A program made the translations under genes and the position numbers. From the sequence record ON528729: DNA of 64,000 bases; one strand, given 5' to 3'. Below the pieces are notes generated by a model. That model saw nothing but the letters and a program-made list of their open reading frames with translations. It was not told the DNA's origin and made no database searches. Below are positions 43,995 through 45,305 of the stretch, piece by piece. The number at the start of each line of letters is the position of its first letter. The stretch's first letter is position 1. Origin of the DNA: Shigella phage ESh19.

Positions 43995-44065
43995 TGGTAC
44001 TCCATATCGGATTCGAACCGATACATAACACAGATTTTAAATCTGGCCTCTCTGCCAATTGGAGT
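43995..44065 (-). tRNA. compact tRNA, anticodon loop TTTAAAA (anticodon TAA, Leu-type?)
   Basis: Canonical T-arm ATCGG-TTCGAAT-CCGAT and CCA; only 71 nt, atypical D/variable regions. Confidence 0.4.
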
Positions 44066-44075
44066 AATGGAGCGT

Positions 44076-44151
44076 TGGCGGGGGATGATGGAATTGAACC
44101 ATCTTCTTCGATTTCAAAGACCGAGGTTTTAACCTTGTAAACTAATCCCCT
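44076..44151 (-). tRNA. tRNA-Gln (TTG)
   Basis: D-stem GTTT/AAAC, anticodon stem TCGGT/ATCGA loop CTTTGAA, T-arm GATGG-TTCAATT-CCATC. Confidence 0.6.
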
Positions 44152-44377
44152 AACGAACTCTTGTCAGGATATATGCGTTATTACATGTATCCTTATTTTC
44201 TGGTAACATTGTTTCAAAGATAACTTGCTTGAGTTCTAATCCAGCAAAGTTGTAGACAATCTTTTTAACTTCGAGTGGGTCAGCTTTCCAGCCAACTCTA
44301 ATAAAGAATGTATCTCCAAGCCTTCCTGTTTCAAGTTTGTCATCTTCTTGGTGTTTTTCAACTATAAGTCTAAACAT
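44150..44377 (-). CDS. hypothetical protein (75 aa) between tRNAs
   Basis: ORF track; RBS AGGGTAG before ATG. Confidence 0.4.
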   Translation of the reverse strand: MFRLIVEKHQEDDKLETGRLGDTFFIRVGWKADPLEVKKIVYNFAGLELKQVIFETMLPENKDTCNNAYILTRVR

Positions 44378-44395
44378 AAGCTACCCTATTAAATT

Positions 44396-44472
44396 TGGTG
44401 CAGAATAGAGGATTCGAACCCCTAACTAACAACTTCGTAGGTTGCTGCTCTGTCCATTTGAACTAATTCTGC
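44396..44472 (-). tRNA. tRNA-Arg (ACG)
   Basis: Acceptor GCAGAAT/ATTCTGC perfect, anticodon stem GCAAC/GTTGT loop CTACGAA, T-arm AGGGG-TTCGAAT-CCTCT. Confidence 0.7.
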
Positions 44473-44634
44473 AATATCCTTTTGAGATTCCTGTCTAGCT
44501 CTCTTCTTATCTCTTCTGAGAAAGCGTTTACGATGGTCTGTGCGCCATTTGTAATAATCTTCTTCACCATCATGTGCTGCACAGCAGCCACAACTTGCAA
44601 TTTCAACTTTACCATGTCTACCATAAGGCTTCAT
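44422..44634 (-). CDS. small Cys-rich protein (70 aa as read; 3' end overlaps tRNA-Arg)
   Basis: Strong RBS AGGAG 7 nt before ATG 44634; SCGCCAAH motif; last 17 codons overlap tRNA 44396..44472. Confidence 0.3.
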   Translation of the reverse strand: MKPYGRHGKVEIASCGCCAAHDGEEDYYKWRTDHRKRFLRRDKKRARQESQKDIAELVQMDRAATYEVVS

Positions 44635-44650
44635 AGGAATCTCCTAAAAT

Positions 44651-44728
44651 TGGTGTTCCAAGACGGATTCGAACCGTCACTAATACAAGGTTTGAGCTTG
44701 CATCCTCTGCCAATTGGGATACTGGAAC
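44651..44728 (-). tRNA. tRNA with anticodon CAA (Leu-type?, short variable arm)
   Basis: Acceptor GTTCCAG/TTGGAAC, anticodon stem GCAAG/CTTGT loop CTCAAAC, T-arm GACGG-TTCGAAT-CCGTC, A73, CCA. Confidence 0.5.
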
Positions 44729-44729
44729 T

Positions 44730-44804
44730 TGGTACTCGCTGAAGGACTTGAACCTTCTTCACCAACTTGTAAGGATGGGGCTTTACCATATAAACTAAGC
44801 GAGC
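44730..44804 (-). tRNA. tRNA-Val (TAC)
   Basis: Anticodon loop CTTACAA, T-arm GAAGG-TTCAAGT-CCTTC, acceptor GCTCGCT/AGCGAGT. Confidence 0.6.
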
Positions 44805-44900
44805 TTTGAAAGAGGTCTGAAGCTGTGCCGCTAACTCAACTCCGTGGAATTTGTTACGGTCTTCAGTTGACTCAAGCGGTCTTTCACTTGACCTCAAAAT

Positions 44901-44976
44901 TGGTGCTCCCACAAGGATTCGAACCCTGATAAGTTGCTTACAAGGCAACCGTAATAGCCAATTATACGATAAGAGC
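44901..44976 (-). tRNA. tRNA-Thr (TGT)
   Basis: Anticodon stem GTTGC/GCAAC loop CTTGTAA, T-arm CAGGG-TTCGAAT-CCTTG. Confidence 0.6.
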
Positions 44977-44982
44977 ATTATT

Positions 44983-45057
44983 TGGAGCATCCAGAGGGAA
45001 TCGAACCCTCAACCTCAGTTTGGAAGACTGTAATTTTCCCGTTTAAACTATGGATGC
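44983..45057 (-). tRNA. tRNA-Gly (TCC)
   Basis: Acceptor GCATCCA/TGGATGC perfect, U73, anticodon loop CTTCCAA, T-arm GAGGG-TTCGATT-CCCTC. Confidence 0.7.
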
Positions 45058-45063
45058 ACTAAT

Positions 45064-45139
45064 TGGTGGAGAAGCAGGGAATTGAACCCTGTACTTAAGT
45101 TTGCAAAACTTATGTTTTAACCATGTAAACTACATCCCC
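45064..45139 (-). tRNA. tRNA-Ala (TGC)
   Basis: G3-U70 wobble pair in acceptor stem, anticodon stem TAAGT/ACTTA loop TTTGCAA, D-stem GTTT/AAAC. Confidence 0.7.
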
Positions 45140-45145
45140 ATTGTT

Positions 45146-45221
45146 TGGTACAGGTGGAGGGAATTGAACCCATCGTCTTACTGATTAAGAGTCAGCCGCA
45201 TAACCATTTTGCTACACCTGC
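45146..45221 (-). tRNA. tRNA-Lys (CTT)
   Basis: Acceptor GCAGGTG/CACCTGT, anticodon stem GCTGA/TCAGT loop CTCTTAA; T-stem only partly paired. Confidence 0.5.
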
Positions 45222-45228
45222 ATTAATT

Positions 45229-45305
45229 TGGTACACCTAGAGAGATTCGAACTCACACTGAGCAGATTCTAAGTCTGCTGCCTCTTCCAGTTGGGCTATA
45301 GGTGC
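45229..45305 (-). tRNA. tRNA with anticodon TAG (Leu-type?, short variable arm)
   Basis: Anticodon stem GCAGA/TCTGC loop CTTAGAA, T-loop TTCGAAT, acceptor GCACCTA/TAGGTGT. Confidence 0.5.

What the first reader, a model, noticed from the sequence alone, without database searches (positions are those of the whole stretch)
43995..45305. Three Leu-anticodon tRNAs (TAA, CAA, TAG) that lack the long variable arm
The elements at 43995..44065, 44651..44728 and 45229..45305 have anticodon loops TTTAAAA, CTCAAAC and CTTAGAA, with A73 and canonical T-arms but short variable regions (type I). Bacterial tRNA-Leu is normally type II. No type II Leu tRNA was found, so either these are unusual compact Leu tRNAs or my anticodon assignment is wrong; the 71-nt TAA element also has an atypical D region.
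Basis: partly seen in the sequence, partly recalled or inferred. Interest (0 to 1): 0.5.

Follow-up and report, generated by a model that had tools for sequence, protein, structure and literature searches.

The report
Short-armed leucine tRNAs in a phage
A Felix O1-like phage of Shigella/E. coli carries three real leucine tRNA genes that lack the long extra arm found in its host's leucine tRNAs; this short form turns out to be common in phages and in Actinomycetota, so the case is ordinary but little described.

Summary
The window is a Felix O1-like myovirus (Mooglevirus, 97% identical to Shigella phage Sf18). It has a 26-gene tRNA cluster on the minus strand. The three tRNA-Leu genes (UAA 43995-44073, CAA 44651-44728, UAG 45229-45305) have variable regions of 7, 6 and 5 nt. 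Both tRNA-Ser and tRNA-Tyr keep long arms. All three keep the E. coli LeuRS identity set apart from the arm: A73, A14, A15:U48, G18G19 and A20a in an 11-nt D loop. Two of them are 99-100% identical in Felix O1, against 83% for alignable non-tRNA sequence. They belong to a coherent short-armed (type I) tRNA-Leu family (U8-A9, C12:G23, C13·A22). That family makes up about 31% of tRNA-Leu genes in Leu-blind samples of viral contigs, against 2/125 Ser and 0/37 Tyr, and occurs as single chromosomal genes in many Actinomycetota. The best reading is that they are working leucine tRNAs charged by the host LeuRS, serving the UUA/UUG/CUN codons the phage prefers. Charging was not tested. E. coli LeuRS failed on a Streptomyces type I tRNA-Leu, but that tRNA has C48. 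New member of a known kind; modest interest.

The parts
43995..44073 (-). tRNA-Leu(UAA), 79 nt including CCA. Anticodon at 44039-44037; 7-nt variable region at 44029-44023; A73 at 43998.
   Evidence: ARAGORN, Rfam 46.9 bits, dissection. 98.7% identical in Felix O1.
44651..44728 (-). tRNA-Leu(CAA), 78 nt including CCA. Anticodon at 44694-44692; 6-nt variable region at 44684-44679; A73 at 44654.
   Evidence: ARAGORN, Rfam 44.0 bits, dissection. 100% identical in Felix O1.
45229..45305 (-). tRNA-Leu(UAG), 77 nt including CCA. Anticodon at 45271-45269; 5-nt variable region at 45261-45257; A73 at 45232. Position 37 is A, where E. coli leuW has G37.
   Evidence: ARAGORN, Rfam 54.5 bits, dissection, comparison with leuW.
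42795..47882 (-). The whole phage tRNA cluster: 26 tRNA genes, nearly all with encoded CCA, interspersed with small ORFs.
   Evidence: ARAGORN default finds 25 genes and the relaxed run finds 26. The same gene order is annotated in Shigella phage Sf18.
42877..42969 (-). tRNA-Ser(GCU), 93 nt, long variable arm (about 21 nt). Internal contrast to the Leu genes.
45559..45648 (-). tRNA-Ser(UGA), 90 nt, long variable arm (about 20 nt). Internal contrast.
47241..47328 (-). tRNA-Tyr(GUA), 88 nt, long variable arm. Internal contrast.
   Evidence: Missed by default ARAGORN and found with the relaxed threshold. Identical to the annotated Sf18 tRNA-Tyr.

Best explanation
These are three working phage leucine tRNAs of the short-armed (type I) kind. 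They are transcribed from the minus-strand tRNA cluster and processed to mature tRNAs whose CCA end is already encoded. The phage encodes no synthetase of its own, so the host leucyl-tRNA synthetase charges them. In E. coli that enzyme does not read the anticodon or the long arm. It reads A73 and the shape of the tRNA core (A14, the A15:U48 pair, the placement of G18G19, and A20a), and all of these are kept here. Together the anticodons UAA, CAA and UAG can read UUA, UUG and the CUN codons. These are the leucine codons the AT-rich phage prefers and for which the CUG-biased host has few tRNAs. The genes are not shortened copies of host genes. They belong to an old, coherent type I tRNA-Leu family with a remodelled core (A9, C12:G23, C13·A22) that is found in many phages and in Actinomycetota chromosomes. 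Shown here: gene structure, identity nucleotides, strong conservation, covariation across the family, the contrast with Ser and Tyr, and the codon match. Inferred: expression, charging with leucine by the host enzyme, and use in translation.
For: Structure and identity nucleotides: each gene has a full cloverleaf with U8, A14, A15, G18G19, an 11-nt D loop of the same length and near-identical sequence to E. coli tRNA-Leu, U48, A73 and CCA. They differ from E. coli leuZ, leuX and leuW in length only in the variable region, where they are 8-10 nt shorter. The E. coli identity rules (A73, A15:U48, G18G19, A20a; arm and anticodon not required; armless variants still active) come from the review PMC9976931.
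Purifying selection: Leu(UAA) is at least 95% identical in 248 of 261 phage records. Against Felix O1, Leu(UAA) is 98.7% and Leu(CAA) 100% identical, while alignable non-tRNA sequence in the cluster is 82.7% identical.
Family-wide covariation: in 117 unique 74-nt type I tRNA-Leu, 98.3% of stem cells form standard pairs, with 4-7 pair types per position. Shifted partners give 42-46% and shuffles 61%. U8, A14 and A73 are 100% and A15:U48 is 116/117.
Specificity to Leu: in two Leu-blind samples of viral contigs, 32 of 103 unique tRNA-Leu are type I, against 2 of 125 Ser and 0 of 37 Tyr (Fisher p = 6.5e-13). This fits the E. coli rule that the long arm is not an identity element for LeuRS; that SerRS and bacterial TyrRS do need it is my own knowledge.
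Codon match: in 56 window ORFs the leucine codons are TTA 25%, TTG 17%, CTT 28%, CTA 10%, CTC 5% and CTG 16%. The roughly 50% CTG share in E. coli is my own knowledge.
No synthetase: the five ORFs of 500 aa or more are primase-helicase, DNA polymerase, tail fibre, tape measure and terminase.
Isotype models: Leu scores highest for all three in sister phage Sf14.
Against: Charging was not tested here, and I found no experiment on these genes. The only published test of E. coli LeuRS on a natural type I tRNA-Leu, the Streptomyces coelicolor CAA transcript, was negative. The same group reports that the leucine-specific domain of the E. coli enzyme favours tRNAs with a large variable loop and that its C-terminal domain contacts nucleotides 47f-47i of the arm (PMC6614811). 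That Streptomyces tRNA has C48 rather than the U48 that E. coli LeuRS needs, so the negative result may not carry over, but efficiency could still be reduced. Leu(UAG) has A37 instead of G37 and so lacks the m1G37 site of host leuW. It also has a U·U mismatch in the T stem, and Leu(UAA) has a C·U mismatch in the anticodon stem. The Sf14 study found the phage tRNAs thermodynamically weaker than the host tRNAs.
Confidence: 0.8

Rival explanations
1. Loss of the arm is an adaptation, not just tolerated. The phage tRNA-Leu would escape a host defence enzyme, or the phage's own host-shutoff nuclease, that recognises the long arm or overall shape of host tRNA-Leu. They would still be charged and used in translation.
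For: Phage tRNAs are known to rescue phages from tRNA-cutting defences (PMC11555353). The long variable loop is studied as a substrate feature for the toxin MenT3, which prefers tRNA-Ser (titles and abstracts). Arm loss is recurrent: some viral type I tRNA-Leu keep a type-II-like D arm (G9, G13), which suggests independent deletions. The anticodon loops of Leu(UAG) and Leu(CAA) also differ from the host's.
Against: To my knowledge no nuclease or defence system that targets tRNA-Leu through its long arm has been described in Enterobacteria. The Sf14 study argued against anticodon-nuclease escape for this phage group. The same architecture is found as ordinary single chromosomal genes in Actinomycetota, where no escape is needed. 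Tolerance by LeuRS is enough to explain why only Leu loses the arm.
Confidence: 0.1
2. The genes are decaying relics or pseudogenes that no longer work as tRNAs.
For: There are mismatches in one stem of two of the genes. The phage tRNAs have weaker predicted stability than host tRNAs. The cluster does contain degenerate tRNA-like remnants at 46903-46977 and 45831-45910.
Against: The genes are 99-100% conserved between genera while neighbouring non-tRNA sequence is 83% identical. They are near-invariant in about 250 genomes. All identity and tertiary nucleotides are intact. The architecture shows family-wide compensatory changes. Felix O1 carries a non-orthologous Leu(UAG) that is also type I.
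Confidence: 0.03
3. They are expressed but the host LeuRS does not charge them with leucine. They are either mischarged by another synthetase or act as uncharged decoys or regulators.
For: E. coli LeuRS did not charge a Streptomyces type I tRNA-Leu. The tRNAscan-SE isotype scores for Leu(UAG) are close: Leu 67.4, Ile2 65.7, Lys 63.4.
Against: The complete E. coli leucine identity set is present, including U48, which the Streptomyces tRNA lacks. From my own knowledge of tRNA identity rules, the other synthetases that accept A73 tRNAs mostly depend on anticodon bases that are absent here. The three anticodons form exactly the set needed to cover the leucine codons, and the same trio recurs in unrelated phages. 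This pattern is expected for decoders, not decoys.
Confidence: 0.05
4. The anticodons or isotypes were misassigned, and these are ordinary short-armed tRNAs of another amino acid.
Against: ARAGORN, the tRNAscan-SE annotation of Sf18 and Felix O1 and the isotype models for Sf14 all give Leu. The D arm is the tRNA-Leu-specific one: a 3-bp stem and an 11-nt loop with A14-A15-Y-U-G18-G19-N-A-G-A, plus the A15:U48 pair.
Confidence: 0.01

Closest known systems
Streptomyces coelicolor type I tRNA-Leu(CAA) (Fan et al. 2019, PMC6614811)
   Same: It is a bacterial-type tRNA-Leu with a 5-nt variable loop that coexists with long-armed tRNA-Leu and a single LeuRS. Five nucleotides is the minimum loop length for activity. 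My genome scan shows the same architecture as single chromosomal genes in many Actinomycetota, with the same D-arm signature as the window genes.
   Different: It has C48 where the window genes have U48. It is charged by a LeuRS with a specialised leucine-specific domain, and E. coli LeuRS did not charge it. It is chromosomal, not phage-borne. The host of the window's phage has no type I tRNA-Leu of its own.
E. coli K-12 tRNA-Leu isoacceptors leuZ (UAA), leuX (CAA) and leuW (UAG)
   Same: They have the same anticodons, the same D-arm layout (3-bp stem, 11-nt loop), A14, A15:U48, G18G19 and A73. leuZ shares the G1·U72 pair and an identical anticodon loop with the phage Leu(UAA).
   Different: The host genes are 85-87 nt with a 13-15-nt stem-loop arm. 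They have G9 and G13 where the phage has A9 and C13. They are only 52-62% identical to the phage genes outside the variable region.
tRNA-Leu of the classical coliphages T5 and T4
   Same: They are phage-encoded tRNA-Leu genes in tRNA clusters of virulent E. coli phages.
   Different: T5 tRNA-Leu(UAG) is 85 nt and therefore long-armed. T4 tRNA-Leu is also long-armed; that is my own knowledge and was not checked here. The biochemistry done on those tRNAs therefore does not cover the short-armed form.
tRNA-Leu(TAG) with a short variable loop in a mycobacterial tRNA gene cluster (PMC6582537)
   Same: It is a tRNA-Leu in a mobile tRNA array that has a short variable loop, while the core-genome isoacceptor has the long one. 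Mycobacteriophage Melpomini likewise has three short tRNA-Leu.
   Different: It was noted in one sentence and never followed up. The host is an actinobacterium.
Animal mitochondrial tRNA-Leu
   Same: It is a type I tRNA-Leu whose identity depends on A73 and A14 and needs no long arm.
   Different: It is a degenerate organellar tRNA with a floppy structure and a dedicated mitochondrial LeuRS. The window genes keep canonical D and T loops.

Membership tests
tRNA (Rfam RF00005) | Cloverleaf with a 7-bp acceptor stem, D arm, anticodon arm with a 7-nt loop, and T arm with a GTTCRANTC-type loop | tested here: met
   44.0-54.5 bits against a threshold of 29; ARAGORN; arm-by-arm dissection
tRNA-Leu as read by E. 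coli-type LeuRS | Discriminator A73 | tested here: met
   A73 in all three genes. It is 100% in 117 family members. The rule comes from PMC9976931.
tRNA-Leu as read by E. coli-type LeuRS | Core tertiary set: U8:A14, the A15:U48 pair, G18G19 at the tRNA-Leu position in an 11-nt D loop, and A20a | tested here: met
   The D loops are CAATTGGCAGA, CAATTGGCAGA and CAACTGGAAGA, against GAATCGGTAGA, AAATCGGTAGA and AAATTGGTAGA in leuZ, leuX and leuW. The last variable nucleotide is T in all three genes.
tRNA-Leu as read by E. coli-type LeuRS | Actual leucylation by the host enzyme | not testable with these tools
   This needs an aminoacylation assay or charged-tRNA sequencing. The literature is mixed: armless E. 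coli variants are active, but a Streptomyces type I tRNA-Leu with C48 is not charged.
Type II (long-arm) tRNA | Variable region longer than about 10 nt that forms a stem-loop | tested here: not met
   The variable regions are 7, 6 and 5 nt with no stem. tRNA-Ser and tRNA-Tyr in the same cluster have long arms (Ser 20-21 nt).
Type I tRNA-Leu family with remodelled core (phages and Actinomycetota) | A 5-7-nt variable loop ending in U48, together with U8-A9, C12:G23 and C13·A22. Long-armed tRNA-Leu instead have G9 and usually G13 or A13. | tested here: met
   All three window genes read TA-NNC-C...A-G. In Leu-blind viral samples, A9 with C13 occurs in 11 of 32 type I and 0 of 71 type II tRNA-Leu. 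The nearest relatives outside the variable region are type I tRNA-Leu of unrelated viral contigs and of Nocardia and similar genomes (72-84% identical), against 52-62% for the E. coli genes.
Ounavirinae (Felix O1-like) tRNA cluster | Same genes in the same order as the annotated relatives | tested here: met
   97% identity over 97% of the cluster to Shigella phage Sf18, with the same gene order. Felix O1 shares Leu(UAA) and Leu(CAA).

The most novel reading that the evidence does not exclude
Short-armed tRNA-Leu would be a single, horizontally circulating tRNA family with a rebuilt core, shared between Actinomycetota chromosomes and phages of very different hosts. It would supply roughly a third of all phage tRNA-Leu genes. 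In enterobacterial hosts, which have no such tRNA of their own, either it shows that E. coli-type LeuRS does charge natural type I tRNA-Leu, contrary to the one published test, or the arm loss is selected because it hides the phage tRNA-Leu from a host or phage factor that recognises the long arm.
Probability: 0.25. Interest if true: 0.55.

Novelty: new member of a known kind. Interest (0 to 1): 0.35.

Why it matters
Reviews still state that tRNA-Leu has a long arm everywhere except in animal mitochondria (PMC9976931). These genes, and the census made around them, show that the rule fails often in phages and Actinomycetota, and only for leucine. That pattern is what the known indifference of LeuRS to the arm predicts. 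It also sets up a direct test: can an enterobacterial LeuRS, which never meets a short-armed tRNA-Leu from its own genome, charge one? The practical gain is modest. Annotators should not reject 74-79-nt tRNA-Leu calls in phages as errors, and phage tRNA studies should look beyond the anticodon loop.

Tried and rejected
1. Anticodon misassignment was rejected.
2. A hidden long-armed tRNA-Leu in the window was not found by ARAGORN at default or relaxed thresholds, or by Rfam.
3. A host or prophage copy was sought, but Leu(UAA) has no match in 5,426 complete E. coli genomes at E up to 1.
4. A recent origin from host tRNA-Leu by deletion was rejected for the window genes: they are 52-62% identical to the host genes and have a different core signature. 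It remains plausible for other viral type I tRNA-Leu that keep G9 and G13.
5. A phage-encoded LeuRS was not found among the large ORFs.
6. The plus-strand Rfam hits to 'Plastid-ycf2' and the weak tmRNA, YrlA and snoRNA hits are all far below threshold. They overlap tRNAs or their antisense strands and I treated them as noise.
7. Six literature searches for a description of short-armed tRNA-Leu in phages found only one passing sentence, on a mycobacterial tRNA array. The Sf14 paper on the sister phage never mentions the variable arm.
8. Yang et al. 2021 and Larkin et al. 2002 could not be read.
9. Two pattern scans failed on syntax.
10. The viral and genome scans were capped at 120 loci each, so no absolute counts could be obtained. 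The 31% figure comes from two samples chosen through non-Leu tRNAs with an encoded CCA and a fixed T loop. It is a rough estimate.
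Full report
**What is there**

ARAGORN finds 25 tRNA genes on the minus strand between 42795 and 47882. A relaxed run adds a 26th, tRNA-Tyr(GUA) at 47241-47328. Three are tRNA-Leu:
- UAA at 43995-44073 (79 nt)
- CAA at 44651-44728 (78 nt)
- UAG at 45229-45305 (77 nt)

All three have an encoded CCA. The Rfam tRNA model scores them 46.9, 44.0 and 54.5 bits against a threshold of 29.

Arm-by-arm dissection gives the same layout for each:
- a 7-bp acceptor stem, then U8-A9
- a 3-bp D stem and an 11-nt D loop (CAATTGGCAGA twice, CAACTGGAAGA once)
- a 5-bp anticodon stem with a 7-nt loop (TTTAAAA, CTCAAAC, CTTAGAA)
- a variable region of 7, 6 and 5 nt that ends in U48
- a 5-bp T stem with loop TTCGAAT, then A73 and CCA

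The first element was cut 8 nt short at its 5' end (44066-44073), which produced the apparent "atypical D region". Minor blemishes are a C27·U43 mismatch in Leu(UAA), a U50·U64 mismatch in Leu(UAG), and G·U pairs at 1:72 (UAA, UAG) and 7:66 (CAA). The two tRNA-Ser (93 and 90 nt) and tRNA-Tyr (88 nt) in the same cluster keep long arms.

**Where the window comes from**

The cluster is 97% identical over 97% of its length to Shigella phage Sf18 (Ounavirinae, Mooglevirus). It matches 358 phage records of Escherichia, Salmonella, Shigella, Citrobacter and Erwinia. Sf18 annotates the same genes in the same order, including the three tRNA-Leu called by tRNAscan-SE. A 2025 paper on the sister phage Sf14 gives tRNAscan-SE isotype scores in which Leu is the top model for all three genes. 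It compares anticodon loops with the host but never mentions the variable arm (PMC12482277). So the genes are already in public records as tRNA-Leu, but their short-armed build appears not to have been remarked on for this phage group.

**Comparison with the host**

The matching isoacceptors of E. coli K-12 are leuZ, leuX and leuW, at 87, 85 and 85 nt. The alignment shows that the phage genes are shorter only in the variable region, by 8-10 nt. These features are shared: G1, U8, A14, A15, G18G19, the A-G-A end of the D loop, U33, A35, U48, the T loop and A73-CCA.

According to the identity review PMC9976931, E. coli LeuRS depends on A73 and on the core: A15:U48, G18G19, A20a and the D/T-loop contacts. 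It does not depend on the anticodon or the long arm, and tRNA-Leu variants without the arm stay active. Every listed element is present in the three phage genes.

The window holds no synthetase among its ORFs of 500 aa or more. Those are primase-helicase, DNA polymerase A, tail fibre, tape measure and terminase. Charging must therefore come from the host.

**Evidence that the genes are under selection**

- Leu(UAA) is at least 95% identical in 248 of 261 matching phage records.
- Against Felix O1, a different genus, Leu(UAA) is 98.7% and Leu(CAA) 100% identical. Alignable non-tRNA sequence in the cluster is 82.7% identical, and a third of it does not align at all.
- Felix O1's Leu(UAG) is a different sequence (53% identity) but is also short-armed.
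- Leucine codons in 56 window ORFs are TTA 25%, TTG 17%, CTT 28%, CTA 10%, CTC 5% and CTG 16%. The host strongly prefers CTG (my own knowledge). The anticodons UAA, CAA and UAG cover the codons the phage prefers.

**How general the short-armed form is**

BLAST with the window genes also hit tRNA-Leu of unrelated phages, ungapped across the variable region. Fetching named examples confirmed tRNA-Leu of 74-79 nt next to long-armed Ser and Tyr in the following:

| Phage | Group or host |
|---|---|
| Felix O1 | Felixounavirus, Salmonella |
| Erwinia phage phiEa21-4 | Kolesnikvirus |
| Vibrio phage 1.081.O | KVP40-like |
| Lactobacillus phage Bacchae | Herelleviridae |
| Mycobacterium phage Melpomini | Bixzunavirus |
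| Streptomyces phage Jay2Jay | Samistivirus |

Felix O1, Vibrio phage 1.081.O and Lactobacillus phage Bacchae carry the same UAA/CAA/UAG trio as the window; phiEa21-4 has CAA, AAG and UAA, Melpomini CAG, GAG and CAA, and Jay2Jay two UAG genes. T5's tRNA-Leu(UAG) is long-armed at 85 nt.

In those loci, ARAGORN gave 138 short and 26 long tRNA-Leu, while all 66 Ser and 28 Tyr were long.

To remove the selection bias I drew two samples through non-Leu tRNAs (G73 with encoded CCA). The unique genes in those samples break down as follows:

| tRNA | Unique genes | Short-armed |
|---|---|---|
| Leu | 103 | 32 (31%) |
| Ser | 125 | 2 |
| Tyr | 37 | 0 |

The Leu versus Ser-plus-Tyr contrast gives Fisher p = 6.5e-13. 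In these blind samples the short tRNA-Leu have A73, A15 and U48 in 31 of 32 cases each.

**Covariation**

I collected 117 unique 74-nt type I tRNA-Leu. In these, 98.3% of stem cells form standard pairs, with 4-7 pair types at nearly every position. Shifting the 3' partner gives 42-46% and column shuffles give 61%. U8:A14 is 117/117, A15:U48 is 116/117, and A73 and A35 are 100%. The D-loop and T-loop columns were partly fixed by the search pattern, but U8, U48, A73 and the stems were not.

**A coherent family, also found in cells**

In 80 of 111 loci the short tRNA-Leu was the only tRNA in an 8-kb stretch. Most of these were Actinomycetota: Nocardia, Rhodococcus, Gordonia, Mycobacterium, Corynebacterium, Arthrobacter, Bifidobacterium and Amycolatopsis. 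A minority sat in large tRNA arrays.

These genes and the window's share a core signature: U8-A9, C12:G23 and C13·A22. Long-armed tRNA-Leu have G9 and usually G13 or A13. In the blind viral samples, A9 with C13 occurs in 11 of 32 short and 0 of 71 long tRNA-Leu. Other short viral tRNA-Leu keep the G9/G13 arm of long-armed genes and look like separate, more recent arm losses.

Outside the variable region, the window genes are 72-84% identical to short tRNA-Leu of unrelated viral contigs and of Nocardia-type genomes. They are only 52-62% identical to the E. coli isoacceptors. They are therefore members of an existing type I tRNA-Leu family, not trimmed host genes. No close copy exists in 5,426 E. 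coli genomes.

**What is known already**

- Fan et al. 2019 (PMC6614811) characterised a type I tRNA-Leu(CAA) in Streptomyces coelicolor. Its own LeuRS charges it, five variable nucleotides are the minimum, and E. coli LeuRS could not charge it.
- That tRNA has C48. E. coli LeuRS needs A15:U48, and the window genes have U48, so the negative result is not directly transferable. It does leave the efficiency of charging open. The same paper also reports contacts of the E. coli enzyme with nucleotides 47f-47i of the arm.
- A paper on mycobacterial genomes notes in one sentence that a tRNA-Leu(TAG) in a tRNA array has a short variable loop (PMC6582537).
- I found no paper that describes the trait in phages generally.

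**Verdict**

The most likely mechanism is ordinary decoding by tRNAs that the host LeuRS charges through A73 and the core. The arm is dispensable for this synthetase but not for SerRS or TyrRS, which explains why only Leu loses it.

An adaptive reading remains possible, in which the phage tRNAs escape a factor that recognises the arm. It has no direct support. The Sf14 study argued against nuclease escape in this phage group.

The case is a new member of a known kind. It is a useful reminder that the textbook rule is leaky, it offers a clean biochemical test, and it is not a new type of system.

Noticed in passing
window 45831-45910 (-): An unannotated tRNA-like element. It has a 7-bp acceptor stem (ATGGGAC/GTCCCAT), a T arm (GGGG-TTCGAAT-CCTC), G73 and an encoded CCA. 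It also has a stem-loop GTAAG-CCTCCAAAA-CTTAC whose loop contains U-CCA-A, the Trp anticodon. Trp is the only amino acid with no tRNA in this cluster. ARAGORN does not call it even when relaxed, and Rfam gives only 18.5 bits (to tRNA-Sec). It lies in a stretch that aligns to Felix O1 at about 88% identity. It may be a degenerate tRNA-Trp or a tRNA-like RNA.
   Followed up: partly
window 46903-46977 (-): An Rfam tRNA hit just at threshold (29.6 bits against 29). It has a good T arm (GAAGG-TTCGAAT-CCTTC) but no convincing acceptor stem. It is probably a tRNA remnant and is not annotated in Sf18.
   Followed up: partly
window 47241-47328 (-): Default ARAGORN misses tRNA-Tyr(GUA), 88 nt and long-armed. 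The relaxed threshold finds it. It is identical to the tRNAscan-SE-annotated tRNA-Tyr of Sf18, so the cluster has 26 tRNAs, not 25.
   Followed up: yes
window 48048-49463 (-); L003 11318-12054; L246 254-1903: The ORF next to the tRNA cluster, just beyond its high-coordinate end, carries DUF2828 and DUF7788. A DUF2828 gene also flanks the tRNA cluster of Vibrio phage 1.081.O, and a gene annotated as a 'Ro' RNA-binding protein flanks that of Streptomyces phage Jay2Jay. This may be a recurring link between a Ro/TROVE-like RNA-binding protein and phage tRNA clusters.
   Followed up: no
window 45267 (position 37 of Leu-UAG) and 44690 (position 38 of Leu-CAA): Leu(UAG) has A37 where E. coli leuW has G37, so it lacks the m1G37 site. 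Leu(CAA) has C38 where leuX has A38. Across the 47 UAG members of the 117-member type I family, position 37 is A in 25 and G in 21 (C in one).
   Followed up: partly
L243 2570-2647 (Felix O1) compared with window 45229-45305: The tRNA-Leu(UAG) of Felix O1 sits at the same place in the cluster but is not orthologous to the window's gene (53% identity). The gene has been replaced within the subfamily, and both versions are short-armed.
   Followed up: partly
window 43999/44073 and 45233/45305 (pair 1:72): G1·U72 wobble pairs close the acceptor stems of Leu(UAA) and Leu(UAG). The same wobble is in E. coli leuZ and in 44 of 117 type I tRNA-Leu. Fan et al. mention a contact between the E. coli LeuRS CP1 domain and the G1-U72 pair.
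   Followed up: no
Genome-contig loci L250-L369: Short-armed tRNA-Leu (UAA, CAA, UAG, CAG, GAG) are single chromosomal genes in many Actinomycetota. They also occur in tRNA arrays of up to 35 genes per 8-kb locus in a few MAGs (Planctomycetota, Acidobacteriota). This contradicts the review statement that tRNA-Leu is long-armed everywhere except in animal mitochondria.
   Followed up: partly
window 42971-43705 (-), 44150-44377 (-), 44422-44634 (-): Protein-coding ORFs are interspersed among the tRNA genes. One is a DUF7217 protein (E = 7e-84), annotated in Sf18 as a hypothetical receptor-binding protein. Two are small ORFs of 75 and 70 aa with no Pfam match.
   Followed up: partly
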